Below, piece by piece: positions 27,080-55,729 of a stretch of DNA of 64,000 nucleotides (position 1 is its first letter; every line of letters begins with the position of its first letter). A program made the translations under genes and the position numbers. The notes beneath the pieces were generated by a model. That model searched no databases and was not told the origin of the DNA. It saw only the letters and a list, made by a program, of their open reading frames with translations. This stretch comes from the human T2T-CHM13v2.0 reference genome, Homo sapiens, in NCBI RefSeq assembly GCF_009914755.1, contig NC_060943.1; one strand, written 5' to 3'.

Positions 27080-27373
<294 letters not shown>

Positions 27374-27582: not shown

Positions 27583-28055
27583 GTAAGATTGAGTAAGGAC
27601 CTGGGGCTCCGACTTCATCCTCTTGGGCAGCCCAGGTGAGTAGATGGTTGTTAATCATTCGACAGATTTTTTGGGTGAAGCCCCATGTCTAACGGTTTTA
27701 TCTCTGCCCTCATCTTAATGCTCTATTTAGAAGCATTAAAAACAAGACCAGGCACAGTGGCTCAATCTGTAATCCCGGCACTCTGGGAGGCCAAGACGGG
27801 CAGATTGCTTGAGCTCAGGAGTTGAGACCAGCCTGAGCAAGATGGCGAAACCCTATCTCTACAAAAACCAATAATAATAGTAAATTTTTCTAAAAAACAA
27901 AAAACACCTGACCAAATAAAACAACTTTTTTTTTTTAACCAGCTGGCTACATTCTCCTAGTTTTTATCTTTATCCAAGTCAGGGCATCCATGTATGGTTA
28001 TGTAGATTGAACACTGAACAACCCAAGACAAAGATGTACTTGGTACTGAAAGTAA

Positions 28056-28057
<2 letters not shown>

Positions 28058-28092
<35 letters not shown>
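28058..28092. repeat. (GT)n microsatellite
   Basis: Direct reading. Confidence 0.95.
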
Positions 28093-28094
<2 letters not shown>

Positions 28095-29729
28095 ATAAGT
28101 CAGTATTCCCAAATCTAAAAAGCTCCAAAAAACAGGAGTTTTTGGCAGCAAAGTCTGATCTGAATTGATAAGATGTTGTTTGTGGTCTTCATTTTATTCC
28201 ACTTACTGGGATTATGCATATATTTGTAGAATTTTTATACCACCTTTTCTTGACTTATACCCTTTAAGTATTATCTTTTGCCTTTCTATTGTGGTGAGGA
28301 TTTAGCTCCCTTCCTCTCCCGTCTTCTCATTTCTCCTTCCCCATTCTCTCAACATAAATTATTCTTAGTTAACTGAGCCAAGTAGTTTATCATATGATTC
28401 CACTTCCTGCTTGGTACAACTTTTTGTTTTTCCCAGAATTAAGTTGCCTTTCTTTTCCAGTTTGGTGAAGTTTTTGCATACATGTCCAGTTGCTCCATCT
28501 GATCTGTCACATGCTTATCAATAGTCTCCAAATGTTCAAATATTCATTGCATTATTATTATTATTATTATTATTTGAGATAGAGTCTTGCTCTGTTGCCC
28601 AGGCTGGAGTTACAGTGCCATGATCTCGGCCCACTGCAACCTCTGTCTTCCGGGTTCAAGCAATTCTCGTGCCTTAGCCTCCCAAGTAGCTGGAACTGCA
28701 GGCCTGTGCCACCATGCCTGGCTGATTTTTGTATTTTTAGTAGAGATGGGGTTTCACAATTTTGGCCAGACTGGTCTCAAACTCCTGACCTCAGGTGAGC
28801 CTTGGCCTCCCAAAGTGCTGGGATTACAGGCATGAGCCACTGCACCCAGCTCCATTGCATTATTTTTTTCCTCCATCCTTTTGCACTTAGCTGGACTGTT
28901 GTTTTAGGTTGTCTTAGGTTGGGTACCCTAGAAGCAAAATCTGAGTTGGAGATCTTTGTGATTTATCAATGGGGAGCTCTCAGGTGAAAACCAAAAGGAA
29001 GTGAGGAGAGAAGGATAGGCTGGGGGAAAAAACAAGAAAGGACACACATTCAGCTGGATTGTAACTTCAGACTGATCCCATAGGAAGCTCTGAGGCATGA
29101 ACGACACCAGAGTTGTTCCACTTTGAGGCAAGGAGGCTGTGCTTTTGTAACCCCAACTCAGATAGTCATTGGCTGTGGGCTCAGGCATCCATGTGGGATA
29201 GGGAGCATAACTTCCCAGTTATTTCTAAGTAAGGGCGGTTTTCTGGAAAAGAGGGAACTGTGGGCCACTAGAGATCTGATAGGACATCAACAGCATCTTC
29301 TACAAGCTGCCATACAGGGATATCCCTTTTTCCCACTCCTGGGTTGGATCCCCTATTTTCTGGGGTCTTTGCCTTCTTTTTTGGATTATTCCTTGATTTA
29401 GCTGGATATCATTCATTGGTAGGTTTTGCAAAGTAGTTATGTGAAAGAACACTTTGATTTCTTTCCTAAATTTTTTTTTTTTTTTTTTTTTTTTAGAGAC
29501 AAGGTCGTGCTCTGTTACCCAGCCTGGAATGCAGTGGCATGATCATAGCTTACTGCAGCCTTAAATTCCTGGGCTCAAAGGATCCTCCCACCTCAGCCTC
29601 CCCTGTAGCCAGAACTACAGGCATGTGCCACCATGCCTGACTAATTTGTTTTACAGTGATTTTCTACATGTCTAGACTTTGCAAACGGAGCCAGAAAAGA
29701 ACTCTGACATTTTCCCCAAGTTACATTCT

Positions 29730-30475
29730 CTGAATTAGTTTCCTGTTAATGCCACAACAAATGAACAGAAACTTAGTGACTTAAAACAATATTTATTTAT
29801 TTATTTAGAAATGGAGTCTCGTTCTGTCACCCAGGCTGGAGTGCAGTGGCAGTGGCATGATCTCAACTCACTGCAACCTCCACCTCCGGGTTAAACGATT
29901 CTCATGTCTCAGTCTCCCAAGCCGGGATTACAGGCATGCACCACCACGCCCAGCTAATTTTTGTATTTTTAGTAGAGACGGGATTTCACCATGTTGGCAA
30001 GGCTGGTCCTGAACTCTTGAACTCAAGTGATCTGCTTGCCTCAGCCTCCCAAAATGCTGGGATTACAGGCATAAGCAAGCGCGCCTGGTCCATTTATTAT
30101 CTTATAGTTCTGGTGGTCAGAAGTTTGAAAATGGTCTCACTGGGCTAAAATCAATATGTCATCAGGGCTGCATTCCTTCTAGAGGCTCTTGGGGACCTTT
30201 TCCAGCTTCTAGAGGCCACCTATGTTCCTTATCTCAGGGCCCCTTCCTCCATCTTCACAGCCAGCAGTGCAGCCTCTTCCCCTCTCCTGCTTCCCTCTTA
30301 TAAGGACCCTGTGATGACATTGGGCCACCCAGATCATCCAGGATGATCTCCCATCTCAAGATTCTTAACTTAATCCCATCTACAAAGTCCCTTTTGCCAT
30401 GAAAGATTACATATTCACAGGTCCCAGGAGTTAGAACGTGGACATCTTTAGGGGGCCATTATTTTGCCTCCCACA
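29730..30475. mobile_element. MLT1 (MaLR) LTR interrupted by an Alu
   Basis: ttatcttatagttctgg...gggctgcattccttct...gggccattattttgcctcccaca. Confidence 0.7.
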
Positions 30476-30699
30476 CTCTCCATCAAGCAGGCTAAATCTT
30501 AGGGCCTTTGCACGTGCTTCTAGAAGGTTCTTTCTCTTGTTCTTTGCAGGGCTGACTCTTCTTTGTCACTTAGCTCTCTGCTAAATATTTCCTTGGCCCC
30601 TCTCAATCCCTCTCATATGCCCCATGCTCAGTGCCTGAGATGTGTTAGGTCTTCAATACATATTTCCTTTCTTGGCTGAATACATAATACATACACATT

Positions 30700-32460
<1,761 letters not shown>

Positions 32461-32932
32461 ATCTTGCATCCTTTTTTAACAGTTGTGTAATATTCCACTG
32501 CATGCTTGGACCACAGTTTCTTTAGCCAACCCTTTGTCATTGAACCTGTAAGCTGTTTCCATTCTGTTACAAAACAGTGTTGCAAAGAACGTCTTGAACG
32601 TGTTTCTTTGTGTGCCTGAGTCTTTCCTTCAGCTGAATTCCTTCACCCACAGAAGTGAAGTTGACAGGTTGCACTTAAAATGTTAATAGAACTGTCATGT
32701 TACCTTCCAAAAATATTTTACCAGTTTATGCCTCTCATCAAATCCCTAGACAGAGTGCAAAAATCTGACTGGCCAACCCAGCTAATGGGTTGTCTCCTTT
32801 TGGTTGGGAGTCCTGCGTAATCTGATCAGTGAAGGAATGTTCTCTTGGGCAAAGTTGGGTGGATCAGGAGAGATGGACATCCCTGGTGCACGGAAGGCCC
32901 TGCTGTGGCTAACCTAGCTTCGTTCCATACAG

Positions 32933-33114
32933 GGCACCTTGGTAAGTACTCTAAAGGAGGTAAAACCTACTGTCTTCATTGGAGTGCCTCAAATTTGGGA
33001 GAAGATACATGAGATGGTGAAGAAAAATAGTGCCAAGTCCATGGGCTTGAAGAAGAAGGCATTCGTGTGGGCAAGAAACATTGGCTTCAAGGTCAACTCA
33101 AAAAAGATGTTGGG
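32933..33114 (+). CDS. ACSBG2: ACSBG2 coding exon (GTLVSTLKEVKPTVFIGVPQIWEK...KKMLG)
   Basis: ttccatacag acceptor; GG|gtaggt donor; 182 nt. Confidence 0.94.
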
Positions 33115-33220
33115 GTAGGTGGAGCATCCAGAGGGCTGGGAGGGTAGTTGGTGAGGAGGCTCAGCCTTCTCCAGTGGGTCCCATCAGCCCTTCTCCACTT
33201 GACGGCATTCTTATTCACAG

Positions 33221-33454
33221 GAAATATAATACTCCCGTGAGCTACCGCATGGCTAAGACTCTCGTGTTCAGCAAAGTCAAGACATCCCTTGGCTTGGATC
33301 ACTGTCACTCTTTTATCAGTGGGACTGCGCCCCTCAACCAAGAGACTGCCGAGTTCTTTCTAAGCTTGGACATACCTATAGGCGAGTTGTATGGGTTGAG
33401 TGAGAGCTCGGGACCCCACACGATATCCAACCAGAATAACTACAGGCTTCTAAG
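33221..33454 (+). CDS. ACSBG2: ACSBG2 coding exon (KYNTPVSY...SGTAPL...YGLSESSGPH...LL)
   Basis: ttattcacag acceptor after a 106-nt intron; AG|gtacca donor; 234 nt; YGxSE motif. Confidence 0.95.
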
Positions 33455-34948
33455 GTACCAGCCCCCGGGGCAGACCCCTGCTCCTCCCATAACATGGGGT
33501 CAAGAGGGGGAAGGTGGGTGGATAGATGGGCCTCTGGGTTAAGAGGAATCCTGACGTGGTGTCTCCAGAATGATCCTGTTCTCCAGCCTCCAAGTCCTAA
33601 CTCCGCATGACCGTGGGAAACCCTGGATGGTAAGAGAGCCCACAGATAAGGGGGATGGCTCTCTGAACATTCCATGGTCTCCCCGTTTGTCACTTGTGAG
33701 TTCTGCCTTCAAGGTCACCGCCTGTGACCTCAGCACCTTTCATCCCCATGATCCTCCATCTCAAAACACCTCCATGGCCGATTCCTGGCTTTCTCCCAAG
33801 CTCAGCTTGCCCTAGGCTGCAAGGTTGAACCCAATGATAAGAAAACTTTAAGAATACCAAATTGAGGTTCAACTCCCCATCTGAGAGCTGTCAGTCATAG
33901 AATCTTCTGGTTGTGTCTCTCCCTGACTCCCTCCTTTTAGCATGGGTGAGGTTTGAAAAAATCTTTTCATACATGTGTTTATTTATTAAATTTTAATTAG
34001 AGATAGGGTCTCACTTTGTTGCCCAGGCTGGAGTGCAATGGTACAATCATAGATCACTGTAACCTTGAACTTCTGGATTCAAGCATTCCTCCTGCCTCAG
34101 CCTCCCAACTAGCTAGGACTACACGCATGAGCCTCCATGCTTGGCAATTCTGTAAAAGTTTTTTTGTAGAGATGGGGTCTTGCCATGTTGCCTAGGCTGG
34201 CCTTGAATTCCTGGACTCAAGCAATCCTCAGCCTCCCAAAGCGCTGGGATTACAGGCATGAACCACCATGCCCAGCATTGCCATACATTTAAAAGTCATT
34301 TGTACTTCCTTTCCTATGAGCTGTCTGTCCATATTATCTGCCTGTTTTAAAAATTAGATTATTGGTCCCTTTATTATTGGTTTGTTGGCACTCTTTACAT
34401 ATTAGGAAAATCAGCCCTTTGTCTTTCATATGAGTTACAAATATTTTATCCCCTGGCTTGTCATTGGTATTTTGATTTTAGTTAAGATGTTTTTTACTGT
34501 GCAGAAATTTGTGGTCACAAATTTAGATGGTTGAACTTATCGATCTCTTATGGCTTCTGGATTTTTCTATATACCTAAAAAGGCTTCAGTGGGGGAAATC
34601 ATAAGGCAGCTCTTTGTAAGTTTTAAATTTCTCAGGTCTGTCTTCATTTTTTCTTTTGCTAACCAGGGGAATACCTACATTTAACCCTGGGACCATTGGC
34701 CTTGCTAACTGTTAATCAAAGAGATCTCAGCAACACACGGAGAAAATATTTCCTTTCCTGCATCCTAGAACTGCACTGGCCAGTGCTATCTCTAGGAAAA
34801 AAAAAAAAAAAGACAAAGAACCCAGATTTCAAATAGTGCTACTCTGTTTTATGAAAGTAACTTTTACCTCTAAAGAGATTGTAGTTGGTTGCCGTACTTA
34901 AAATTAGCTGTCCTAATCACTGCAGAGAGGTCTACCTGTTTTCTTTAA

Positions 34949-35377
<429 letters not shown>

Positions 35378-35619
35378 TAAGATTACAGGTGTGAGCCACC
35401 ACACCTGGCCACTGCTAGGTTTCCCAGTTCACAAAGCCTTTGGGAATCTGACACGCTGGATTAAACACTGCAGCAAACACCTCCTTCTGTGCGCTGGGGT
35501 GCATATCCAGCCTGCTCTAGCTGAGCAGAGTATTAGGCACCTAGGCTGAAGATCCAGGCAGAGCTGGGTGGCTGACTTTGTCCCTATGAGCCTGTTTCTC
35601 TGCTTCTGTCCCCTGGCAG

Positions 35620-35837
35620 CTGTGGCAAGATCTTGACTGGGTGTAAGAATATGCTGTTCCAGCAGAACAAGGATGGCATTGGGGAGATCTGCCTCTGGGG
35701 TAGGCACATCTTCATGGGCTATCTGGAAAGTGAGACTGAAACTACAGAGGCCATCGATGATGAAGGCTGGCTACACTCTGGGGATCTGGGCCAGCTGGAC
35801 GGTCTGGGTTTCCTCTATGTCACCGGCCACATCAAAG
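35620..35837 (+). CDS. ACSBG2: ACSBG2 coding exon with FACS motif II (GEICLWGRHIFMGY...GWLHSGDLG...TGHIK)
   Basis: ccctggcag acceptor; AAG|gtacca donor; 218 nt. Confidence 0.96.
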
Positions 35838-36379
35838 GTACCAGGGGCTGAGCTCTTTGGGAATCTCCTGCAAGCAGGCCCACCCTGAACATTTAAGGGC
35901 CCAGGGTACCAGCACGAAGGCCACCCCCAGTTCCTCACCTTCCAAGAGGAGCTGTGCAGAAACTCCTCAGTCTGTACAACCCAGCTCTATCCTCCTGTCC
36001 AGCAAACAGTTACCCCTTGGTCACTTGGTATCCCGTGGTCCACCCTCAGGAGGATGGACCTGCAAAAGACAAGCCTTGGAACCTCCTGAAGCCCCTTTCA
36101 GAATAGCACCAGCCCAGAGGAAAACTCAGTAAGAGAAGGATAAAGAAATTCCTTGTGACATCATTTTGGCACCTGGATCCAGCCATATCTGAAAGCCAAA
36201 GACCTTTTGAACTTTTCAGTTATATTGAGCCAACAGTTTTACTTTTTTTTTTTTTTTAACTCAAACTCATTCAAGCTGGTTCAAATGGGCTTGAGTAAAA
36301 AAGTGCCATCTTCTCCTGCATTTTAAGAGGATAATAATCGACAGAGTTGTAAGGATTGAAGAAAGTATAGAACAAGGAT

Positions 36380-36680
36380 AAGCCAACTTTTCCTGAAGAG
36401 GGCCCTTTAGTAAATATTTTTGGGTTCACAAAACATGTGTCTCTGTTGTAGCTTCTCAACTCTGTGATTTGTAGCACAAAAACAGCTGTTGACAACACAT
36501 AAAGAATGGGTGTGGCCAGCTGCCAATATGAATATCATAATTTTTATGTGTCAAAAAAAATTCTTCTTTTGACTTCCAACAACTTAAAAATGTAAAATTC
36601 ATTTTTAGCTTTTGGTTATACAAAATTGAATAGTGGCCTGGATTTGGCCACTATGGGCCATAGTTTGCCAAAATCTGATG
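36380..36680. mobile_element. MER58-like hAT DNA transposon remnant
   Basis: gtctctgttgtagcttctcaactctg...gggccatagtttgcca. Confidence 0.6.
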
Positions 36681-37208
36681 GAGAACACTTAGTGCTTTTT
36701 TACTCAAACCCATTTAAGATGGGTTTAAATAGGTTTGAGGAAAAAAATAAAAAGCAAAACTGTTGACTCAACGTAACTGAAAAGGTCAGTTGGCCAAAAG
36801 GTCAGCTGGCTTCAGGCATGGCTGGATCTGGGTGCCAAAATGAGGTCATAAGGAATTTTAAAATTCTTTTCTTGAGTTTTCCTCTGTGCTGGTACTATTT
36901 TATTTTTCAGAGAAGGTCTCGCTCTGTTGGCCAGGCTGGAATGCAGTGGTCCAATTATGACTCACTGTGGCCTCAACTTCCCAGGCTCAGGTGATTCTCC
37001 CACCTCAGCCTCCTGAGTAACTAGGACTACAGGCGTGTGCCACCACACCCGGCTATTTTTTTGCAGAGACCCAATTTCACTGTGTTGCCCAGGTTGGTCT
37101 AGCACTTGTGGGCTCAAGTGATCTGCCCACCTCAGCCTCCCAAAGTGGCAGGATTACAGGTGTGAGCCACTGTGCCTGGCCACTAGGTTTTTTTTTTTTT
37201 TTTTTTGA

Positions 37209-38030
<822 letters not shown>

Positions 38031-38449
38031 GTGAGTGGCCATGACATTTGGAGGCTGGTCCCTTGTTAGCATCTGGGACTGTGTGGGCTCTGAAGAGACA
38101 GGTCCTTTTCTGAAGGTCAGAGGGTCTATGAAACCAGCCAGGGACCAGGAGAGGGAGGCTGCCACCTTCAGCTAACTGGTCCCCAGCTCCTCATCTTGGA
38201 AATAAAATCCAACCTCCTTACTATAGCTCTATACAATCTCTCGCCTGCTGACCTTTCATTCACTCTGCACCAACTCTATGGGCTTTCTTGATGTTCCTGC
38301 AGCTCTCTGGGCTTTGTCCAACTATAGGGCCTTTGCACCTGCCAGTCTGCCTCCCTGGGAATACCCTTCCCCCTCAATTCCTTGCCTGGATGGCTTCTTC
38401 TCATTGTCCAGGTCTCACCCTACAGGCCTCTTCCCCCTCAGAGCAGCCT

Positions 38450-39362
38450 TGTTACAGGACCCCCAGGTTTGTATGCCCACTGCACAGTAATATACCAATA
38501 CACTGAGACAGCAGGGGATGCAGCAAAGACAGAGTTTAATTATGGCCAGGCACAGTGGCTCACGCCTGTAATCCCAACACTTTGGGAGGCTGAGTTGGGC
38601 AGACTGCTTGAGCCCAGGAGTTTGAGACCAACCTGGGCAACATGGTGAAATCCTAACTCTACACAAAATACAAAAATTAGCTGGGTATGGTAGCGGTGCC
38701 CAGCTACTCAGGAGACTGAGAGGATCGCTTGAGCCCAGGGAGGTCAAGGCTGCAGTGAGCCACAATCATGCCAGTGCACTCCAGCCTAGGCAATGCAGTG
38801 AGACCCTGTCTCAAAAACAAAAAACAAACAAACAAAAATAAAAAAGGAAATTAAATTCCCTTGCAGGGAAGCCAACCGAGATGGAAGGAACCCTCAAATC
38901 TCTCTTTGAGGAATTCTGGGCTGGGGTTTTAAGGGGATCTTTGGGGGTGAAGGGCTGGAAAATTAGAGTCATTGATTGGTTGAGGTAAAGGGGATGAAAT
39001 CATCGGATGTGGAAGCTGCATTCTTTGGTAAGTCAGCTCCCGTGGGGTCCTTCAGATCAGTGGGCATCAGTAGTTTCACTGGTATGCAGGACTTGAAAGG
39101 ATATCTCAGATGGAAAACTTGACCTTTCACAATGCTTAATATGTTATCTGTAGAGCAGTTAAGGGGAACTATATCTTGTGATTGGGTTTTTTGTGTGTGT
39201 GTGATTCTGGGGCAATAGGCAAACAGCTAGCTATGAGGAAGGGGTTAGAGAGCAAACTGACCTAATGATGAATGTTGAGTGTGCTGTAAGTGTGGCTGAT
39301 TTTAGTTTGTCCCCCTCCCTTCTTCTCTGATTAATATTATAAAGTTTTCAGGGATGGTTTCA
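38450..39362 (-). mobile_element. ERV1-class solo LTR with an internal Alu (38544-38845)
   Basis: TG...CA termini (minus strand begins TGAAACCATCCC); approximate 4-bp TSD gcct/gccc. Confidence 0.65.
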
Positions 39363-39843
39363 GCCCTCCCTGACCATGCTGGCTAAAGTGGCTTGCCATC
39401 GTCCTTAATATTTCACCCAGTAGCTTGCTGCCACCCCCATTATACCACCCTGTCTTCTTTAAAGCATCAGAACATGAAATTAGTCTCTGTATGTTTTATT
39501 TTTGCCTCTCTTCCCCCATGAGGGAAGGGCTCACTCCAGAGTGGGGATACTGGATTCTACTAATGTACTTTCATTTGCGAGTTTGCTGTCAGCGCTCGGC
39601 TGTAATCTGACGGTGTGGATGGAAGAATCAGAGCAAGTATGTGGCAATGAACAACCTGGGTTCAAATCCTGTCCCCTCTACACAGGGAAGTGACTTGTCC
39701 CACTGAGTCTTGTTTTTTTTTTGTTTGTTTTGAGACAGAGTCTTGCTCTGTTACCCAGGTTGGAGTACGATGGCACAATCACAGCTTGCTGCTGCAGCCT
39801 TGAACTCCCAGGCTCAAGCGATCCTCCCACCTCAGCCTCCTGA

Positions 39844-40113
<270 letters not shown>

Positions 40114-40768
40114 TGATCTCTTGACCTCGTGATCAACCCGCCTTGGCCTCCCAAAGTGCTGGGATTACAGGCGTGAGCCACCGTGCCTGGCCGCTATCCT
40201 CTTTTTGTTTTGTAGAGATGGTGTTTTGCCATGTTGTCCAGGCTGGTGGTCTTCTCATCTATAAGTTGAAAACACAGTCCTTGTGGGGTTGCTTGAGACA
40301 CCCAGAGGGGCTTCAATGCCCCTGGTGACTCAGAGGCTTTCAATGAAAGTCCTGGGCTCAGGGAGCAGACAACTCCCAGTTTGAGACTTGATTCTGCCGT
40401 GCACTTGCTGGCTGACCTCAGAGGAACTGGTCCTCTCTATGCCCCAGTTTCCTCACCTGTAAAATGGGGATAGGGGTATGGTTTGAGATGATGATATCCC
40501 TCCTCCATTGGGTGCACAGTCCACATCAGGCACAGAATGCACCATGCTCTTCACCTTCCAGCTCACAGAATCCTCACCACAGCTGAAGGATCACATGGAA
40601 GTTTTATCATCCCCATACAGATGGCAAAAGTTACACACCCTGAAAGTCAATGGCACAGCCAGCCACCCAGCCTAGCCCCAGGCATGGGACTCTGTTGCCT
40701 GGTCATGCATGGGTGTGTGTAATTTTCTTTTATCTCCACAACTCAATTGATTTCTCCTTTCTCGATAG

Positions 40769-40842
40769 GTCCAATGATGAAACTTAAGAGACATTTTGTA
40801 GCCCAGAAATACAAAAAACAAATTGATCACATGTACCACTGA
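40769..40842 (+). CDS. ACSBG2: ACSBG2 last coding exon (GPMMKLKRHFVAQKYKKQIDHMYH*)
   Basis: tttctcctttctcgatag acceptor; TGA at 40840-40842; the exon likely continues to a donor ATG|gtgaga at 40877. Confidence 0.94.
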
Positions 40843-40975
40843 CTGCTTTGATGGAGCTGCTCTCAGCTGTTCTGATGGTGAGATTCAGTTGCTTGGCTTT
40901 GCTGGGCTATGCATTCAGAGTCCAAGAGAGGGCTCCACTGTGTGGCAGGCAGATCTGTGACTGGAACTGCAGAAA

Positions 40976-40989
40976 ACACACACACACAC

Positions 40990-41040
<51 letters not shown>
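40976..41040. repeat. (CA)n microsatellite in the 3'UTR intron
   Basis: Direct reading. Confidence 0.95.
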
Positions 41041-41042
<2 letters not shown>

Positions 41043-41552
41043 TAGTTGCAGTGGATTCTGAGTAGCAGGCTTCAACTCATGCTGTCTCTACTCTACCAGG
41101 GTCATGGTAGGGTGTGTAAACTCCTTCAGCTGGCCACCAATGTTGTTAGCTGTGCTTCCTGCCTTTTCTATTTGTTTCTAGAAAGTAGGAGGCAATGAAT
41201 CCCAAATGTCTCATTGGGTCTTATTTGGAGAAGGCCTTTGTCAGAAACTTTAGTGGAGAAAGTTCTACTTGCCAGGAACTCAAGGAATGAGGTGTGTTGG
41301 CCCATTACACAGATAATAAGGGATGGAGGCTTGAACTTCCACTATCCACCGTTTATCCTCTCTTTTCCCCAAGACATGTGCAGAGGGAGCCTCCATGACA
41401 CCATGAATCACTGATAGTTATTGAGGTGTTTTTTTTTTTTTTCTTCACTAGATGCACAGTGCAGGCAGAAAGTAGAATGCATCTTCAATTGTCCTATAGG
41501 CTGCCTGTAACCTTTTCATGGGCAACTTGTTCTAATGCCACCAGCCAACCCA

Positions 41553-41950
41553 TGTTTTAGTTTGCTGGGGCTACATTACAAAGTACCACAGACTGGAGGG
41601 CTTAAACAACATAAACTTATTGTCTCACAGATCTGGAGGCTAAAAGTGTGAGATTGAGAGGCTGGCTGGCTTGGTTCCTTCTGAGGGCTGTGAGGGGAGG
41701 ATCCATTCCAGACTTCTCTCCTTGGCTTGCTGATGGCTGTCTTCTCTCTCTGTCTTCACATCATCTTCCCTCTGGGTGTCACTGTGTTCAAATTTCCCTT
41801 TTATAGGGACAGGTTAGTAAGATTAGGGCCCACCCTTATGACCTCGTTTTAACTTCTATAATGATCTAGTTTCCAAATAAGTTACACCCTGAAGTACTAA
41901 AGGTTAGGACTTCAACATGTGAATTGTGGAGGGATACAACTCAGCTTGTA
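41553..41950. mobile_element. MLT1 (MaLR) LTR
   Basis: aaagtaccacagactgg..ggcttaaacaac...gttaggacttcaacat. Confidence 0.7.
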
Positions 41951-43012
41951 ACTCATCATATCCATTGTCCTTTGTTCAACGTTAACTGGTTTAACCCTTC
42001 CACACCTTCATTTGTTGATGTCTTGTGGGTGGGCCCAGCAGTTCAACGTACCACATTCATAATTCTTCATCTTTCACAAGATTTCCAATTTCACTTTCCA
42101 GTTGAATGAGAAACCATTGGACATTGATGTGGGAGTGAGAGATGGACCCTCTTACACCAGTGCTGTCCAATATGGCAGCCACTGGCCACTATGTGGTCTG
42201 TCCAAACCAAGATGTGCTGTAATACATAAAACACACTGGGCTTCAAAAGCACAGCACCAAAAAAAAAAAAAAAAAAAAAAAATAGAATATACAATATCTC
42301 ATCAGTATTTTAAAATTTTGATTACATGTTGAGATGATATTTTGGAATACCGGGTTACGTAAAATATTTATTATTAAAAGTAATTTTACCAGTTTTAAAT
42401 TTTTATTTACTTTTTAGAGACAGGGTCTTGCTCTGTTGCTCAGGCTAGAGTGCAGTGGTGCATTCATACCTAATGTTTTAAATGTTTTTGTAGAGATGAG
42501 GTATTTCTATGTTGCCCAGGTTGGTCTCAAACTCCTGGCCTCAAGCGATCCTCCTGCTTCAGCTTCACAAAGTGCTGTGATTACAAGTGTGAGCCACTGT
42601 GCCTGGCCAAGTTCCTTTTTTAAAAATGTAGCTGCTATACATTGTTAAATTGCATAGGTGGCTCCAGTAATGTTTCTTGTGGATAGTGCCACTCTAAAGT
42701 TCATTGTGGGGAGATTTTGGGTGACAGCCAATTTATAAATGGATCGATTCACTCGGGAATATTTTCATCATATGGTGACTGTGGGATCTTGGAGACTGAA
42801 TGCACATATTACGAGAATCCCCATGTGATAACTTGTGTTTCTCCTCTTTGCAGCCTTCAGCAGGAAGACCTCATTGCAATAAGTGAAATGCTGCTCTAGG
42901 TAGAAGCTCTCCCTGCTGTTTTTAAGAAGCCACATTCCTCATTGGTCAGTTTCTTGATTGTTCGTCTGTTGGAGAGGTGCTCCCTAGAAGAACCTGCCAT
43001 ACGTTTCAAAGC

Positions 43013-43018
43013 AATAAA
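43013..43018 (+). terminator. Proximal poly(A) signal AATAAA (ACSBG2)
   Basis: AATAAA in the terminal exon. Confidence 0.55.
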
Positions 43019-43258
43019 ATCACTGTATATCTTTCTAAGGACCTTCAAGTCATGACTCCAGGGAAGCCTATTGGGAAGTCTACTAAAAACTGCCTGATTT
43101 ACAAGAAAGACCTGAACTTGTGGGCTCCCATTTGATTTTTTTCTCCTCAGGGGACTCAGACATTAGAAAGAAAAAGCCTCACAGATTTGAAGAACTGGAC
43201 CCCCAAATCAACTCACCTGCCTGGAAGCAACTGGGAAACCCTTCCAATAAGTCCTGAT

Positions 43259-43264
43259 AATAAA
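43259..43264 (+). terminator. Distal poly(A) signal AATAAA (ACSBG2)
   Basis: AATAAA followed ~20 nt later by GU/U-rich tgtcttgattttt. Confidence 0.7.
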
Positions 43265-43947
43265 GCACTTCAGGGTCCCATGTCTTGATTTTTGGCTTGA
43301 TAGAAATACTTTGTCCTTTATTTAGTGTGATGGGGAGGGCTTGGACTCTGAAATCAGTTCTGGGTTCAAATTGTGACCAGCTGTGATTTCAACTGTCTGA
43401 GGCTCGGAGATTTTAAACCTGGAAAGTAGATCCCCATCTCGGAGGGTGGCCATGGAAGTTCATGGAGATGATGTACAGGGAATGCAGTATCTAACTCCAG
43501 AAAGTCCTCGGTTTGAGTTAATGGTTATCATCAACACAGTCACTCTTGGTTAACTCAAGAGTCAAGGTATGACTCTTGACTAATTCCGTCATTAGGGAGG
43601 AGTTTTCTGTTGTAGTAAGTTAAGTAAACTTAAAGAAGATAGTTTATTCCTCTCCCATCCAACAGTCATATTATAAGCAGACCAGAGCTGATAAAGCATA
43701 TTCATAGTGTGTCTCCGAAATATTAGTAGGGAGAGTGGGAGAGGGAACATCTCCCAGCCTGGACAGAAACAGCATATCAGGAGCAACAAAACTCCCAGTG
43801 TCTCTTAAGCTTCTAGATACTCAGAGGCAGGCCAGAGACCCTTTTGAGTTCCATTTTTTAAATACACCAGAAATTTAAAATGACATTCTCCTTGCAAAAA
43901 AAAAAAATTAATGCAATGCCGATAAGGCTAATGTCATATTTGATTGC

Positions 43948-44353
43948 TGTACTAGGCCATTATTGCACTGTTATAAAGAAATACCTGAGATGGGGTCATT
44001 TATAAAGAAAAGAGGTTTAATTAATTAGCTCATGGTTCTACAGGCTTTATAGAAAGTATGGTGCTGGTGCCTGTTCAGCTTCTGGTGAAGCCTCAGGGAG
44101 CTCACAATCATAGCGGAGGGCAAAAGGGGAGCAGGCATGTCGCATGGCGAAAGCAGTTGCAAGCCAGAGGGAGTGCCACACATTTTTAAATGACCAGATC
44201 TTTTGAGAACACACTATCGTGAAGACAGCCCCAAGCCATGAGGGATCCGCCCCCCTGCCATGACCCAAACACCTCCACCAGGCCCCACCTCCAGCACAGG
44301 GGATTACAGTGCAACATGAGATTTGGGCAGGGACAAATATCCAAACCACATCA
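43948..44353. mobile_element. MST-type MaLR LTR
   Basis: ataaagaaatacctgaga...aagaggtttaatt...ggacaaatatccaaaccacatca. Confidence 0.8.
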
Positions 44354-45728
44354 ATGGCCCTCCTCAACTATTTGGCGGGCTTTTACTTTTTAATGAGTTA
44401 GTACAGTTGGTCCTCACTATCTGCCAATTCCATATTTGCAAATTTGCCTCATCGCTAGAATTTGCTTGTAAACCCCAAATCAATAGTTATGGCACTTTAG
44501 AGGTCATTCCAGGACATACACAGGAGTGAAAAATTTGAGTGGCCAACTGTACATTCCCAGCTGAGGTTGAACAAGGCAACACTCTGGCTTCCTGTTTCAG
44601 CTCTCACACTGTAAACAGTGCCCTTTCTGAGGTATATCTCATGCCACATTTTCTGCATTTTCATGTTTCTGTTAGTAAACCTTTTTGAGTTTTTTAAAAA
44701 TAGAGACAGGGCCTCACTCTGTCACCCAGGCTGGAGTGCACTGGTGTGATCTCAGCTCACTGTAACTTCAAATTCCTGGGCTCAAGGGATCCTCTCCTGT
44801 CTTGGCCTCCCAAAGCACTGGGGTTACAGGTATGAGCCACTGAACTCAGCCAAACCCTTCTAATTTTATCCATGACTACACTGTACAATTTTTGGTCAAT
44901 ATAATTCTATTTTATAGTTTTTGTTTCTACTGTCCATGTGATCTCCCCACTTGTAGGTTTTCTAGGTAGTTAATGTTGGTATATGGAAGTGCTGTTGATT
45001 TTTGTATGTTAATATTATATCTAGACACCTCACTGCTAACCTATTTCTCAAAATGTGTAAGCTTTTTACAGAGATGTGCATATCTTTTGCAAATATTTTT
45101 TTACTTCCTTTTCAATATTGATTCCTCATCAAGGAAATACAAATGGTTGATCATGTCAAGTGAGGGAAGCTCGAATACAGGAGAGGAATGTATGTATTTT
45201 CTATAATGATTCTCACCCTGGTCTCACTGTTCTCTTAATGTTCTCTCAATGTTTTTTGAGAAACGACAAGAATCTACTAATGTCAGGAAGGCTTTTAAAA
45301 TTTAACTGTGGTAAAATATATGTAACATAAAATGTGTCATTTTAACCCTTTTTTAGTACACAGTTCGGTGGCATTAAGCACATTCACATTGTTGTACAAC
45401 CATCAACACGACGCATTTCTAGAAGTTTCATCTCTTCAAACTGAAACTTTATATCCATCAAACAATTCCCCATTTCCCCTTCCCCTGAAAGCTATCATTC
45501 TATTTTCTGTCTCTTGAATTTTACTACTTTAAGCACCTTAAAAGTGAAATTGTCGGCCGGGCATGGTGGCTCATGCCTGTAATCCCAGCACTCTGAGAAG
45601 CCGAGGCGGGTGGATCATGAGGTCAGGAGTTCGAGACCAGCCCAGCCAATACGGCGAAACCCCGTCTCTACAAAAAATACAAAAATTAGCTGGGCGTGGT
45701 GGTGCATGCCTGTAGTCCCAGCTGCTCA

Positions 45729-45893
<165 letters not shown>

Positions 45894-45933
45894 TTAACTG
45901 AGGATAATGTCTTCAAGGGTCATCCTTTTTTAA

Positions 45934-46245
<312 letters not shown>

Positions 46246-46875
46246 TGAATCATGCTTCTATGTATATGGGTCCATGGCATGGTTCAGGGTCCATGGCAAA
46301 AACGCACTCAACGCCCAGAAAAGAAACCATGGGTGTATAAATATCTCTTCACGCCCCTGCTTTCAATTATGCTTGGTGGGCAAATGAATTCATAAACCCC
46401 CAGGCACAGTGACTCAAAGTCCTTCTCTAACTCAACCTTCTGGGAGCCCAGGGCTCTGCTTCCTTGACCTCGATGATGCCCACACCTTATTTACCTCCTC
46501 CATCTCACCACTCTTCTTCCAGCTCCCTTGGGAACTCTCTCACTCAACCTCAACAATGTAGAACAGTGACTCTGGAATCCCTCCTGCTGCCAGACTTGCC
46601 CCTGGCTCCTCCCTGGGGACTGTCACCTTGCAGACCACTGGCTTGTCAGGGCAGTGAAGGGCCTTCTTGGGTAGACCCTCCCTGCCCGCTAAAACTGGCC
46701 TCTACAAAGAGGCAATGGGCCATGTCCCCATCATGGCTCTGGGCCACGGGATACACAGTGATGGCACCAGGCTGGCCATGGACAGGAACATTCTGGATGT
46801 CTGGTCTAGGGACCACTGTCCCCCTGTGGCTAGAACGGGGGGAGTGATCAAGCTGATAAAAAGGTAGAGTCCAGA

Positions 46876-47779
<904 letters not shown>

Positions 47780-47959
47780 TCACTGCAACCTCCACCTCCC
47801 AGGCTGAAATGATTCTCCTGCCTCAGCCTCCCGAGTAGCTGGGATTACAGGTGCCCGACACGATGCCTGGCTAATTTTTGTATTTTTAGTAGAGATGGGG
47901 TTTCACCACGTTGGCCAGGCCTCAAGTGATCCGCCCACCTTGGCCTCCCAAAGTGCTGA

Positions 47960-48181
<222 letters not shown>

Positions 48182-48489
48182 TAGTAGAGACGGTTTCACC
48201 ATATTGGACAAGCTGGTCTCAAACTCCTGACCTCGTGATCCGCCCACCTCGGCCTCCCAAAGTGCTGGGATTACAGGCATGACCCCACGTCTGGCTGCCT
48301 GTTACCTCTTTTAAGATGCTTCTCCCTCCCTCCTTTGCCTGGTCAGTGTCTACCCATTGTTCAGAGAAGCCTTCCCTGGCCACCCCCATAACTCGGTGGG
48401 AATCCTGTGCCTCCCTGCTGGACCCTCCCACCCCTGCTGCCCACTGTAATTTCGTTTGAAGATCTGTCTGCCCAAGCCCAGCAAACTAG

Positions 48490-48622
48490 ATGCCCCCAGA
48501 CAGTGACAAGGAAAACAAAGATACTTTGAAGACCATGTCCTCGGACAGATTCAGAGTCCACGACAGAAAGGCACTCAACACCCAGGAAAGAAAAACAGAG
48601 TTTGGGGCTCCTTGGCTCCTGG
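48490..48622 (+). pseudogene. Candidate first coding exon of the ACSBG-paralog (Acsbg3-like) pseudogene
   Basis: ATG-initiated frame MPPDSDKENKDTLKTMSSDRFRVHDRKALN... ending at a G|gtgagg donor upstream of the relic exon at 49450; homology not verified. Confidence 0.35.
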
Positions 48623-48726
48623 GTGAGGGTAGTGGTGTTCCCAGAGAAGCCAGTTTGAGAGTGGGGATCTAGCGCTTCAGGGCTGGCCAAGGCCGTTCAG
48701 CCAGTGTTGGGATCCTTTAGGGTTCA

Positions 48727-49206
<480 letters not shown>

Positions 49207-49449
49207 CTACAGCTGACCTGTCTGCTTGCTGGTGGGTTTCCTGCTGAACTCCTCTCTGGGTCAGTGCGTCTCACTGTCCACCTGTCCCTGCATCCCCTTC
49301 TGTGCCTCGCTGGTCATCTTTCTCCCTTGGCAATCCACTTCATACACCACGCCTCCTCCGTCTGCCATCTCTCAGTGCCACGCTCCTGCCTGTGCTCCCA
49401 TCTCTCCCTGGTTTTGCCCCTGACACGCCACCTGCTCGCCTCTCTCTAG

Positions 49450-49712
49450 GTCCATCTGGGGGTCTCCGGCCGCCGCTGACCCGCCTGTCCGCAGGCTGAG
49501 CTACTCGGACCACGGAGCGCGACGGGGAGGCGCGACTGCGGCTCAGCAAGGACTAAGTTAGCAACAAGACACTCCTCACTGTGCACGACATGGTCGCGAG
49601 CACGGCCATCAAGTACGCCAACAACATCGCGCCCGGCTCCAACAGCTGCCACCTGCTCACCTACATCGAGTACCACCAGCAGTGTCTCGGCGTCGAGAAG
49701 TCTTTCTTCAAA
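49450..49712 (+). pseudogene. Disabled ACSBG-family exon (Acsbg3-like pseudogene)
   Basis: Reads LSY[fs]TTERDGEARLRLSKD*...TVHDMV...HLLTYIEYHQQCLGVEKSFFK|gt. This resembles the ACSBG N-terminal exon (WTT.RDGEV.LRL ... YYE.CR.AAKS.IK) that precedes LGLERFH. It has a 1-nt frameshift near 49506, TAA at 49554-49556 and a phase-0 donor at 49713. The acceptor could be 49449 or 49494. Confidence 0.8.
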
Positions 49713-50050
49713 GTACCGCCAGGCGGTCCGCGCCTGCGCGCCCCTCCCGCCCCTCCTGCGCCTGCGCGCCTCTTCTGCACCCACCCTCTTGCGCCTGCGC
49801 GCCACTTATTTCACCTCCTGCGCCAGCGCAGCGCTCCAGGGCCTTTCTTCCCCCGCCCCTCCCCGCGTCCTGCGCCTGCGCGCCTTTCTTCCCCCGGTAA
49901 GCCTGCGCGCCGCTCCGGCCCACTTGCTTCTGCGCCTGCGCGCCGCTGCAGGGCCTTCCTCCCCCATCTCCCCCCGCCTCCTACGCCTGCGCGCCACTAC
50001 ATCCCTTCTGCGCCTGCGCAGTGTTACTCTCCTGTGACTGCCACTTGTCT
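49450..50050. promoter_or_regulatory. CpG island with a homotypic NRF1-type motif array
   Basis: Very CpG-dense; six exact GCGCCTGCGC at 49730, 49758, 49791, 49872, 49932 and 50010, plus 3 variants; GC boxes. Confidence 0.75.
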
Positions 50051-50241
50051 GACTCGCATGTTTGTTTTAACGGATTCCCTGAGGCTGCCTGAGAGCCAGA
50101 AATGAAAAGCTGCAGACTTAGGGGCCCTGGTTCAGATCCCAGAGCAGCCATTAGCTACGTTTTCTTGCACGAAAACTTTGTGCCTTTGTGCCTCTGTTTC
50201 CCTATATGAAAACTTTACATATAAATATATATATATATAAA

Positions 50242-55210: not shown

Positions 55211-55299
55211 CTGGGCCTGGAGCGCTTCCACAGCGTGGGAATCATGGGTCTCAACTCAGAAGAGTGGGTCATCGCCAGCATTGGTGCCATCATGGCAGG
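55211..55299 (+). pseudogene. ACSBG-paralog exon (LGLERFHSVGIMGLNSEEWVIASIGAIMAG)
   Basis: Same 89-nt length and phases as the ACSBG2 exon 2430-2518; 21/30 aa identical; cccctag acceptor and GG|gtaaag donor are intact. Confidence 0.93.
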
Positions 55300-55729
55300 G
55301 TAAAGGGCACGCGGCCTCTCCCCGGAGTGTTTTGCGGGCAGGAAGCCACCAGCCCACCTTCTATGGGATCCCAAGGAAGAGTCCTCAGGACAGGGAGCTG
55401 ACAAGAGCTCCCACTTAAGTCTACGCTTAGTGGGATTTTTCAATGGCCCAGTCCTGAGCATGCTCAGCTCACCTTTCCAGACAGTCTCTATCTAGTGAAC
55501 TCATATACATCCTGTGAATCCCCGCATTCATGTCCCCTCTTCCAGAAAGCCCTCCCCACTTCTTGAGGCTCTCCAGCACTGAGCCCTCTCTCCACCCATC
55601 CAGAACATTGGGGAACCCCTTGAGAGCAAGATCCAAGCCTGAACTGTCCCTGAATTCCACCTCCCAACAGGGTATGTTGTGAGTGTCAGGTACTGGGGAT
55701 TCCCAGGAACCTTGCACTCACCCAGCAGG

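What the first reader, a model, noticed from the sequence alone, without database searches (positions are those of the whole stretch)
49450..50050. Dead exon turned CpG island with an array of NRF1-type sites: probable exapted promoter
Seen: the pseudo-exon and the next ~340 bp retain dense CpG while the surrounding DNA is CpG-depleted. Nine spaced copies of (T)GCGCCTGCGC (6 exact), separated by C-rich linkers, look like a decayed minisatellite. Established: GCGC(A/C)TGCGC-type motifs bind NRF1 in a methylation-sensitive way and are common in TATA-less, bidirectional and germline promoters. Inference: repeat expansion created a homotypic NRF1 cluster that keeps this site unmethylated and transcriptionally active after the gene died.
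Basis: partly seen in the sequence, partly recalled or inferred. Interest (0 to 1): 0.75.

Follow-up and report, generated by a model that had tools for sequence, protein, structure and literature searches.

The report
NRF1-site repeat promoter on dead ACSBG2b exon
A small CpG island between ACSBG2 and MLLT1 is made of a leftover exon of a lost ACSBG2 duplicate plus an old, decayed ~29-bp repeat carrying nine NRF1-type sites; it is the annotated start of an antisense lncRNA and resembles the repeat promoters that drive telomere transcription.

Summary
49450-50050 has CpG o/e 0.98 against 0.29 for the window. It carries six exact GCGCCTGCGC, two one-mismatch and one two-mismatch copies, all on the + strand. 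None of 1000 local dinucleotide shuffles reached this.

The "dead exon" is real. Read through its two stops, it aligns to the ACSBG2 exon just upstream of the window. A second relic exon lies at 55211-55300. This fits ACSBG2b, a tandem duplicate reported lost in Haplorhini.

The array lies 21-310 bp upstream of the annotated minus-strand start of lncRNA LOC105372255 (49709). That lncRNA's first exon is antisense inside the relic exon.

The 10-mer equals the functional NRF1 site of the TFAM promoter. It is also the core of the subtelomeric 29-bp TERRA-promoter repeats, which NRF1 binds in a methylation-sensitive way. The locus is single-copy and fails the tests for a TERRA/TAR1 copy.

"Exapted after gene death" is unproven. 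Codon-position CpG patterns suggest the exon was CpG-rich while still coding. NRF1 binding and methylation state could not be tested. Verdict: an ordinary kind of element with an unusual build.

The parts
49321..50120 (.). CpG island (sliding-window extent); the dense core is 49450-50050
   Evidence: 800 bp, GC 0.65, 69 CpG, o/e 0.90. Core 49450-50050: o/e 0.98 against 0.29 for the window. CpG histogram and depleted flanking Alus.
49450..49712 (+). Relic coding exon of a dead ACSBG2 paralogue (probably ACSBG2b). In-frame stops TGA at 49497-49499 and TAA at 49554-49556. Acceptor ...ctctctag| and donor |gtaccg.
   Evidence: frame translation; tblastn to the ACSBG2 exon at chr19:6136193-6136405, 21/71 identical, 35/71 positive, E 3e-6 in 59.3 kb; both exons end at ...K|gt (the ACSBG2 boundary ATCAAG|gtaaga is, the relic's). 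GC1/2/3 = 0.51/0.38/0.88.
49661..49709 (-). First exon of lncRNA LOC105372255 (NR_187772.1), with start at 49709. It lies antisense inside the relic exon. The splice donor GTGAGC on the minus strand is at 49660-49655.
   Evidence: Hub annotation for the exon coordinates. The donor was read from the sequence.
49730..50019 (+). Array of nine NRF1-type sites. Exact GCGCCTGCGC at 49730, 49758, 49791, 49872, 49932 and 50010. One mismatch at 49820 and 49983. Two mismatches at 49899.
   Evidence: Core mean pairwise identity is 0.917, against 0.52 for the six short linkers and 0.76 for the two long ones. 24 of the 37 CpGs of 49713-50050 lie in the core windows.
49815..49884 (+). First copy of an internal ~70-bp duplication (units 4-5)
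   Evidence: local alignment to 49927-49995, score 73, about 81% identity (my count).
49927..49995 (+). Second copy of the internal duplication (units 7-8)
49851..49858 (+). CCCCGCCC, a GC-box-like (Sp/KLF-type) element in a linker. The motif is recalled and its function untested.
   Evidence: regex scan
55211..55300 (+). Second relic exon of the same dead gene (LGLERFHSVGIMGLNSEEWVIASIGAIMAG), CpG-depleted
   Evidence: 70% identity over 30 aa to the next ACSBG2 exon, E 4e-9; the only one of 129 downstream + strand ORFs to hit Pfam AMP-binding (E 0.004, below the curated cut-off). CpG o/e 0.38; flanking ag| and |gtaaag.

Best explanation
49450-50050 is a small germline-protected CpG-island promoter. 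Its left half is the leftover third-exon homologue of a dead tandem duplicate of ACSBG2, most likely ACSBG2b. Its right half is an old, decayed minisatellite whose short units repeat about every 29 bp.

Each unit keeps the core (C)TGCGCCTGCGCG(CC), a GCGCNTGCGC-type NRF1 site identical to the functional TFAM-promoter site. The proposed mechanism has three steps.
1. NRF1 homodimers, probably with Sp/KLF factors on the C-rich linkers, occupy several of the six intact and three weakened sites.
2. This keeps the stretch free of CpG methylation.
3. It positions RNA polymerase II to start at 49709 on the minus strand, 21 bp from the nearest site.

The product is lncRNA LOC105372255. Its first exon and splice donor are the antisense strand of the dead exon, and it runs back across the living paralogue ACSBG2.

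Shown: the sequence anatomy, the ACSBG homology, the rarity of such arrays, and core-over-linker conservation. Taken from annotation: the transcript start and the RefSeq regulatory elements. Inferred: NRF1 occupancy, hypomethylation, and that the sites rather than CpG density alone drive the promoter. The exon half was probably CpG-rich before the gene died, so the island is more likely a retained feature of ACSBG2b put to a new use than a new creation.
For: (1) CpG o/e is 0.98 over 601 bp, against 0.29 for the window and 0.36-0.49 in the immediate flanks and Alus.

(2) There are six exact and two near-exact sites; 0 of 1000 local shuffles reach this. All are on one strand.

(3) The cores are far better kept than the linkers (0.917 vs 0.52/0.76 pairwise identity), although the cores hold 24 of the 37 CpGs. 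That is the opposite of what methylated neutral decay would give.

(4) GCGCCTGCGC is the NRF1 site of the TFAM promoter. [quoted passage not shown]

(5) The same core repeats every 29 bp in subtelomeric TERRA promoters (L002 and L039). There, NRF1 binding was detected by ChIP, binding rises on demethylation, and mutating the sites lowers promoter activity by 35-70% (PMC6600276; PMC5087959; passages).

(6) The hub annotation gives a BestRefSeq lncRNA start at 49709 (minus) and RefSeq enhancer elements at 48906-49509 and 49510-50112. I read a good GTGAGC donor directly after the annotated first exon.

(7) Dead-gene identity rests, and on the literature report that tandem ACSBG2b was lost in Haplorhini (preprint 10.1101/288530, passages).

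(8) The second relic exon is CpG-depleted (o/e 0.38). So CpG richness is a property of this spot, not of the dead gene's remains in general.
Against: - No tool here gives ChIP, methylation or CAGE data, so occupancy, hypomethylation and promoter strength are untested.
- RefSeq also lists a silencer at 49626-49955 over the array (hub annotation). In at least one assay, therefore, the fragment scored as repressive rather than activating.
- Le Berre et al. note that the 29-bp-repeat sites differ from the NRF1 consensus at two nucleotides, and they offer lower affinity as one possible reason for ChIP signal weaker than at TFB2M. These may therefore be weak sites.
- Three of the nine copies carry changes in the GCGC half-sites. 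Changes of this kind reduced binding 2-7-fold or more in ITC.
- The exon alignment is only 30% identical. Pfam, the PDB sequence search and the genome-wide protein search all missed it.
- CpG density alone can make a promoter without any particular factor.
Confidence: 0.6

Rival explanations
1. Retained ancestral promoter rather than exaptation. The CpG island, array included, was already an internal or alternative (testis or germline) promoter or 5' island of the living ACSBG2b gene. It simply outlived the coding sequence. The repeat expansion has nothing to do with the gene's death.
For: GC3 is 0.88 against GC1 0.51 and GC2 0.38. 16 of 19 CpGs (11 of 11 in the ATG-to-end part) touch a third codon position, so the exon was CpG-rich while still under coding constraint. 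The array is old: its youngest visible duplication is only ~81% identical and the short linkers only 52%. It could therefore predate the loss in Haplorhini. ACSBG2b is reported as testis-expressed.
Against: By homology the relic is the third exon. ACSBG2's own annotated start lies ~12 kb upstream of its counterpart and is CpG-poor (o/e 0.17-0.36). ACSBG2's intron after the homologous exon has o/e 0.18, and the 16 kb of its 5' region that I scanned (L038, L040) holds no GCGCNTGCGC site. So the island is not a shared feature of the two paralogues.
Confidence: 0.4
2. The array is an interstitial copy or very old relative of the subtelomeric TAR1/TERRA promoter (the 29-bp repeats). It would belong to the family of intrachromosomal TERRA-like promoters.
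For: The own-genome DNA search hit the chr14q terminal 29-bp array (70% identity over 220 bp, E 7.7e-8). The extended core CTGCGCCTGCGCG is the same, and the short-unit period of 27-33 bp (mean 29.5) is similar. Linker-shuffle controls reached the real score in 0 of 200 trials against chr14q, 8 of 200 against chr21p and 11 of 200 against chr1p. A preprint reports 106 interstitial TERRA-like promoters, 47 of them next to gene starts.
Against: - BLAST with the published query (Xq promoter) and my best rendering of the published settings gives no hit at E<=10 in a genome-sized search space.
- Shuffles reached the real score in 38 of 200 trials against Xq and 81 of 200 against chr9.
- Apart from one 22-bp match to the query's 61-bp-repeat region (query 47-68) at 59574-59595 (E 0.02 in a window-sized search space) and two 16-bp matches elsewhere, both about 10 kb or more from or unrelated to the array, no 61-bp or 37-bp repeat match turned up in the window.
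- No telomeric repeat lies near the array; there is one chance-level match at 31922.
- The 601 bp are single-copy, whereas 105 of the 106 published loci lie in segmental duplications.
- The GCGCCTGCGCGCC variant occurs as a pair nowhere else except one chr6 site.
Confidence: 0.15
3. Passive CpG-rich minisatellite. The sites are a by-product of unit duplication. CpG richness is kept by GC-biased gene conversion or repeat turnover, and the promoter works through CpG density and Sp factors alone. NRF1 plays no part.
For: Same-strand periodic copies are what duplication alone produces. One PRDM9-like 13-mer lies at 49961 (motif recalled). The sites may be low-affinity. RefSeq lists a silencer over the array (hub annotation).
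Against: The array is decayed, not young, yet the CpG-dense cores are much better kept than the linkers. The adjacent non-repeat exon is equally CpG-rich, so repeat turnover cannot explain the island. The identical 10-mer is functional in TFAM.
Confidence: 0.2

Closest known systems
Subtelomeric TERRA promoter 29-bp repeats (part of the 61-29-37 / TAR1 repeats)
   Same: Both are tandem units of about 29 bp that each carry CTGCGCCTGCGCG inside a CpG island. In the TERRA repeats the NRF1 sites are documented as methylation-sensitive and promoter activity as dependent on them. Genome-wide, tight triples of the exact 10-mer gave 649 matches. Among the 114 matches that searches listed, all lie at chromosome ends or at the four other places named in the Full report section, except this locus and one chr9 gene promoter; 549 matches were not listed.
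   Different: This locus is single-copy and 6.19 Mb from the chromosome end. It has no 61-bp or 37-bp repeats, no pre-telomeric segment and no TTAGGG. Its units are decayed and of uneven length. The annotated transcript leaves from the opposite side and in the opposite direction relative to the motif orientation at the chr14q end, where the telomere lies 3' of the motif strand. It is not detected with the published BLAST settings.
NRF1-dependent CpG-island promoters such as TFAM
   Same: The 10-mer GCGCCTGCGC is identical, lies in a CpG-rich TATA-less context, and sits within tens of bases of the transcript start (hub annotation).
   Different: The papers I read treat the TFAM-type site as a single element, whereas this locus has nine copies on one strand. 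Exact triples of the canonical palindrome GCGCATGCGC at 8-38 bp spacing occur 0 times in T2T-CHM13.
ACSBG2b, the therian tandem duplicate of ACSBG2 lost in Haplorhini
   Same: The relics lie directly downstream of ACSBG2 on the same strand. Two exons stand in the right order with ACSBG exon boundaries. The reported loss in Haplorhini fits the two stops and the missing remainder.
   Different: No ACSBG2b sequence from another mammal was available here. Assignment to 2b rather than another ACSBG duplicate rests on position and on the literature alone.

Membership tests
CpG island (length >=200 bp, GC >=0.5, o/e >=0.6; criteria recalled) | Length, GC content and CpG observed/expected | tested here: met
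   601 bp, GC 0.676, o/e 0.98. Sliding-window extent 800 bp, o/e 0.90.
NRF1 binding site (GCGCNTGCGC) | Sequence match to the intact consensus | tested here: met
   six matches to GCGCNTGCGC in the window, all in the array; the paper calls GCGCNTGCGC the intact consensus and uses GCGCCTGCGC as the TFAM site.
NRF1 binding site (GCGCNTGCGC) | Occupancy by NRF1 in cells, and sensitivity to CpG methylation | not testable with these tools
   No ChIP or methylation data are reachable. Only analogy to the TERRA repeats is available.
Promoter | Transcript start at the element | not testable with these tools
   The hub annotation gives NR_187772.1 exon 1 as 49661-49709 (minus). I confirmed only that a GTGAGC donor follows it.
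Minisatellite / tandem repeat | Head-to-tail copies of one unit | tested here: inconclusive
   TRF reports only 2.4 copies of a 33-bp unit. Anchoring on the core gives nine units with periods of 27-52 bp and a 70-bp internal duplication. This is decayed beyond TRF's threshold.
TERRA-type promoter (61-29-37 / TAR1) | 29-bp repeat with the NRF1 core | tested here: inconclusive
   The core and the approximate period are the same. Linker similarity beyond the core is significant against one of five arrays at 0 of 200 and not against two others.
TERRA-type promoter (61-29-37 / TAR1) | Detectable homology to the Xq reference promoter under the published BLAST settings | tested here: not met
   no hit at E<=10 with a genome-sized search space. 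The best local hit is 69% over 101 bp, E 0.85 in a window-sized space.
TERRA-type promoter (61-29-37 / TAR1) | Accompanying 61-bp and/or 37-bp repeats, pre-telomeric segment, or adjacent telomeric repeats | tested here: not met
   the only match to the query's 61-bp-repeat region is 22 bp at 59574-59595, about 10 kb from the array; nothing matches at the array beyond its cores; no TTAGGG run nearby.
TERRA-type promoter (61-29-37 / TAR1) | Location in a segmental duplication (105 of 106 published interstitial loci) | tested here: not met
   the 601 bp match only themselves plus the weak chr14q hit.
ACSBG (bubblegum acyl-CoA synthetase) gene relic | Protein-level homology to ACSBG exons in the right order, strand and exon phase, with disabling lesions | tested here: met
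   E 3e-6, 21/71; E 4e-9, 21/30; two stops; AMP-binding hit E 0.004, below the curated cut-off. Pfam, the PDB sequence search and the genome-wide search missed the first exon.

The most novel reading that the evidence does not exclude
This is an independent, single-copy counterpart (or very old relative) of the TERRA 29-bp-repeat promoter. It would be an NRF1-gated, methylation-switched repeat promoter that has survived the death of its host gene ACSBG2b for tens of millions of years. It now drives an antisense lncRNA across the surviving testis gene ACSBG2. The lncRNA, and through it ACSBG2, would then be co-regulated with telomere transcription by the same NRF1/AMPK and DNA-methylation inputs. 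If so, arrays of weak NRF1 sites at ~29-bp spacing would be a recurrent, convergently evolved promoter design rather than a subtelomeric peculiarity.
Probability: 0.2. Interest if true: 0.55.

Novelty: new member of a known kind. Interest (0 to 1): 0.38.

Why it matters
The locus shows how a piece of a dead gene can stay regulatory. The antisense strand of a dead coding exon supplies the first exon and splice donor of a lncRNA, and an adjacent repeat supplies a stack of factor sites.

It also offers a single-copy, uniquely mappable model of the repeat-built NRF1 promoters at chromosome ends. Those are hard to study because they are multi-copy. Site number, spacing and methylation sensitivity could be dissected here without that problem.

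Finally, it bears on how ACSBG2, a testis-expressed fatty-acid-activating enzyme, might be controlled by antisense transcription. None of this changes a textbook view. CpG-island lncRNA promoters with NRF1 sites are common, and both the transcript and the regulatory elements are already annotated.

Tried and rejected
- Pfam on four translations of the stretch gave nothing relevant. The PDB sequence search with the 51-aa open part gave nothing.
- The genome-wide protein search with the 51-aa open part of the exon found only itself and a chance chr4 hit. It missed ACSBG2. Homology appeared only in a local tblastn with the stops read as X.
- Rfam over 48000-51500 found only the Alu/SRP match at 48852-48968.
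- The canonical NRF1 palindrome as a triple array has 0 matches in the genome.
- TAR1/TERRA membership was rejected on four tests; the linker-shuffle test was mixed.
- A regex for four C-runs with loops up to 7 nt (a G-quadruplex on the minus strand) matched nothing in 49401-50100.
- A blastn search for ACSBG2 5'-region relics upstream of the exon gave 272 rows. The 15 I looked at all fall in stretches the hub lists as masked repeats or in the left flanking Alu.
- Pfam on 129 downstream + strand ORFs of 30 aa or more found only the second relic exon as AMP-binding. I did not scan the 80 ORFs from 43401 to 50089 in that call. The tblastn did cover 43300-60600, but with only the window-encoded (C-terminal) part of ACSBG2 as query.
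- Literature searches for a prior description found only a spaceflight expression preprint. The terms were 'LOC105372255', 'NRF1 + minisatellite + promoter', 'NRF1 + tandem repeat + CpG island + VNTR' and the 10-mer itself (59 papers, 15 listed, one read). None of the listings describes this locus.
- Supplemental Table S3 of preprint 10.1101/2025.05.15.654290, which lists the 106 interstitial TERRA-like promoters, could not be read. The locus might be listed there.
Full report
**The observation.**
- 49450-49712 has 25 CpG (o/e 0.99) and 49713-50050 has 37 CpG (o/e 1.00). The window as a whole has o/e 0.29. The immediate flanks have 0.38 (49160-49449) and 0.49 (50051-50240).
- A sliding scan merges this into one 800-bp island, 49321-50120, with o/e 0.90. 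It is the strongest of the 11 CpG-island-like stretches the scan listed in the 64 kb. The Alus on either side have o/e 0.45 and 0.36.
- GCGCCTGCGC is present six times exactly and twice with one mismatch. All eight window-wide matches are here and on the + strand, and 0 of 100 whole-window shuffles reach eight. A ninth copy at 49899 has two mismatches.
- Against the harder null of dinucleotide shuffles of the GC-rich 338 bp themselves, exact copies average 0.04 (max 2) and copies at <=1 mismatch average 0.57 (max 4). 0 of 1000 shuffles reach the observed counts.
- Periods between successive cores are 28, 33, 29, 52, 27, 33, 51 and 27 bp.
- Tandem Repeats Finder recognises only 2.4 copies of a 33-bp unit, so "decayed" is apt.
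- A 70-column internal duplication (49815-49884 vs 49927-49995, about 81% identical by my count) shows at least one later, larger duplication step.

**The dead exon.** Pfam, the PDB sequence search and a genome-wide protein search did not identify it.
- I read the frame through its two stops (TGA at 49497, TAA at 49554) with X. It then aligns to the ACSBG2 exon just upstream of the window (chr19:6136193-6136405) over 71 residues: 21 identical, 35 positive, E 3e-6 in a 59.3-kb search.
- Both exons end after the same lysine, followed by gt.
- The next ACSBG2 exon has a much clearer relic at 55211-55300 on the same strand: 70% identity over 30 residues, E 4e-9. Its flanking ag| and |gtaaag are intact.
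- Of 129 downstream + strand open frames of 30 aa or more, that one alone hits Pfam AMP-binding (E 0.004, below the curated cut-off). The rest of the gene is gone or unrecognisable.
- A preprint on the ACSBG family (10.1101/288530; passages read) reports three things. ACSBG2a and ACSBG2b arose by tandem duplication in the therian ancestor. ACSBG2b was later lost in Haplorhini. The duplicates are expressed essentially in testis. Position, strand and state of the relics fit ACSBG2b. I had no ACSBG2b sequence from another mammal to confirm it.

**Did the exon "turn into" a CpG island?** Probably not.
- In the aligned part of the relic, GC at codon positions 1, 2 and 3 is 0.51, 0.38 and 0.88. 16 of 19 CpGs involve a third codon position. 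In the part from the ATG to the exon end, GC3 is 0.93 and 11 of 11 CpGs do so.
- A process acting after the frame lost meaning would not respect codon positions. The exon was therefore already GC3- and CpG-rich while coding.
- The second relic exon is CpG-poor (o/e 0.38). ACSBG2's homologous exon has o/e 0.54 and its following intron 0.18. ACSBG2's own annotated start is CpG-poor (0.17-0.36).
- So the island is a local feature of this spot in the 2b copy. It has persisted since the gene died, which implies long-term protection from germline methylation (inference).
- Whether the array arose before or after the death cannot be decided here. Its youngest visible duplication is ~19% diverged and its short linkers are barely alignable. 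With recalled primate substitution rates, that means tens of millions of years, the same order as the loss of the gene.

**What the motif is.** A structural study of NRF1 (PMC10810270; passages read) calls GCGCNTGCGC the intact consensus. It uses GCGCCTGCGC as the native site of the TFAM promoter.
[quoted passage not shown] Paired palindromic changes, or replacing one GCGC repeat, cut it about 6-fold.
- In ITC on GCGCATGCGC variants, single changes lowered affinity 2-7-fold.
- Six units here therefore carry an intact, proven site type. The three variants (GCGCCAGCGC, AAGCCTGCGC, ACGCCTGCGC) should be weaker.
- Core pairwise identity is 0.917, against 0.52 for the six short linkers and 0.76 for the two long ones. 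The cores nonetheless hold 24 of the array's 37 CpGs.
- CpG-dense cores outlasting their linkers is hard to reconcile with methylated neutral decay. It points to constraint on the sites, to lack of methylation, or to both.

**The unexpected relative.** The own-genome DNA search returned one non-self hit: the last 2.4 kb of chr14q (70% over 220 bp, E 7.7e-8).
- There, CTCTGCGCCTGCGCGG... repeats every 29-30 bp right up to the TTAGGG tract. These are the 29-bp repeats of the TERRA promoter; the Xq reference is.
- Triples of the exact 10-mer at 10-40 bp spacing occur 649 times in T2T-CHM13. The 100 matches listed are all at the ends of chromosomes 1-3; 549 were not listed.
- I restricted the first gap to values that avoid the 29-bp register. 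That left 4 matches: this locus, chr9:40.8 Mb, chr9:149.87 Mb and the chr21q end. It left 10: the chr14q and chr17q ends, chr21p and chr22p.
- I fetched and read chr21p and chr9:40.8 Mb. Both are TERRA-promoter-like, with 37-bp-type repeats and telomeric hexamers. chr22p shows the same unit as chr21p in the listing, but I did not fetch it.
- chr9:149.87 Mb is an ordinary gene-type CpG island with a short GCGCAG microsatellite.
- Pairs of this locus's own variant, GCGCCTGCGCGCC, occur only here and once on chr6. Triples of the canonical palindrome GCGCATGCGC occur nowhere.
- So among the matches I could see, this array is the only non-TERRA-type one of its kind.

**What is known about the TERRA repeats.**
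- Each 29-bp repeat is predicted to hold two NRF1 sites. NRF1 ChIP signal at subtelomeric islands rises after demethylation. The rise in TERRA after targeted demethylation depends on NRF1. The sites differ from the consensus at two nucleotides and gave weaker ChIP signal than TFB2M (PMC6600276; passages).
- NRF1 binding was detected by ChIP on all tested subtelomeres with predicted sites. Mutating the sites in a 10q promoter construct lowered its activity by 35-70% (PMC5087959; passages).

**Is the chr19 array a member of that family?** I tested the defining features and it mostly fails.
- With the published query (Xq promoter) and my rendering of the published BLAST settings (section 12 of preprint 10.1101/2025.05.15.654290), there is no hit at E<=10 in a genome-sized search space.
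- Across the whole window, that query's only match to its 61-bp-repeat region is 22 bp at 59574-59595 (E 0.02 in a window-sized space), about 10 kb from the array. There are also two 16-bp matches elsewhere. No 37-bp repeat or pre-telomeric segment matches near the array.
- There is no telomeric repeat nearby.
- The 601 bp are single-copy, whereas 105 of the 106 published interstitial TERRA-like promoters lie in segmental duplications.
- I tested linker similarity beyond the cores by fixing the cores and shuffling each linker. Shuffles reached the real score in 0 of 200 trials against chr14q, 8 of 200 against chr21p and 11 of 200 against chr1p. They reached it in 38 of 200 against Xq and 81 of 200 against the chr9 pericentromeric copy.
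- My reading is that the array works like a TERRA 29-bp-repeat promoter but is not shown to be one. Convergence on the same site and a similar period is at least as likely as distant common origin.
- I could not read that preprint's Supplemental Table S3, so I cannot exclude that the authors list this locus.

**Promoter status.** This rests on the hub's annotation, not on my calls.
- NR_187772.1 (BestRefSeq) starts at 49709 on the minus strand, 21 bp from the first core. The array lies 21-310 bp upstream of it.
- Exon 1 (49661-49709) lies wholly inside the relic exon on the opposite strand and is followed by a consensus-like GTGAGC donor (read).
- The transcript then runs back across the whole of ACSBG2 (span -23844..49709).
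- RefSeq lists enhancer elements over 48906-50112. It also lists a silencer at 49626-49955 over the array, which counts against a simple always-on reading.
- The only paper naming the lncRNA reports transient expression changes in a spaceflight data set (preprint 10.1101/2025.09.12.675876; passages). That shows little beyond detectability.
- At the chr14q end the telomere lies 3' of the motif-bearing strand. TERRA is transcribed from the subtelomere toward the telomere (abstract in the listing). Here the annotated start lies on the other side and runs the other way. The interstitial-promoter preprint speculates that promoters lacking the 61-bp CTCF repeat may fire in both directions.

**Mechanism, with status of each step.**
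- Shown: an island of two parts (relic exon plus site array), intact NRF1-type cores kept better than their linkers, and rarity of such arrays.
- From annotation: the transcript start and the regulatory-element calls.
- Inferred from the TFAM and TERRA precedents: NRF1 dimers bind several cores, protect the island from methylation and help place the start. Methylation would shut it off.
- Speculative: the lncRNA modulates ACSBG2 by antisense transcription.

**Novelty.** I put 0.6 on the main reading. CpG-island lncRNA promoters with NRF1 sites are a known kind. Repeat-built NRF1 promoters are known at chromosome ends. The loss of ACSBG2b is in print. The transcript and regulatory elements are annotated.

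What I did not find in print is threefold: that this island is built on an ACSBG2b relic exon, that it contains a nine-site array, and that the array mirrors the TERRA 29-bp repeat. That makes it a new member of a known kind, of moderate interest.

Noticed in passing
window 55211-55300 (+): A second relic exon of the dead ACSBG paralogue, 70% identical in protein to the next ACSBG2 exon, with splice sites still readable and CpG-depleted. No further relic exons were detected between 50093 and 60558.
   Followed up: yes
whole genome: Exact triples of the canonical NRF1 palindrome GCGCATGCGC at 8-38 bp spacing occur 0 times in T2T-CHM13. Triples of GCGCCTGCGC occur 649 times, almost all in subtelomeric or TERRA-like 29-bp arrays among the matches that were listed.
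   Followed up: partly
L042 (G000:C9:149869801-149871400), about 756-813: A gene-type CpG island on distal 9q holds a short GCGCAG microsatellite that creates four overlapping or adjacent GCGCAGGCGC sites. This is another small case of a repeat making NRF1-type sites. I did not identify the gene.
   Followed up: no
L035/L044 (G000:C6:171665289-171665327): The only other place in the genome with two GCGCCTGCGCGCC 13-mers 10-45 bp apart. It was fetched but not examined.
   Followed up: no
L038 around 5251-5550 (chr19:6127251-6127550, in the ACSBG2 5' region upstream of the window): A 300-bp stretch with CpG o/e 0.95 inside the otherwise CpG-poor 5' part of ACSBG2. ACSBG2's annotated start itself is CpG-poor (o/e 0.17-0.36).
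   Followed up: no
window 62041-63340: Three adjoining CpG-island-like stretches (o/e 0.63-0.67, GC 0.63-0.70) over the 3' terminal exon region of MLLT1.
   Followed up: no
window 49961-49973 (+): One match to the recalled PRDM9-type 13-mer CCNCCNTNNCCNC inside a C-rich linker of the array. No chance expectation was computed.
   Followed up: no
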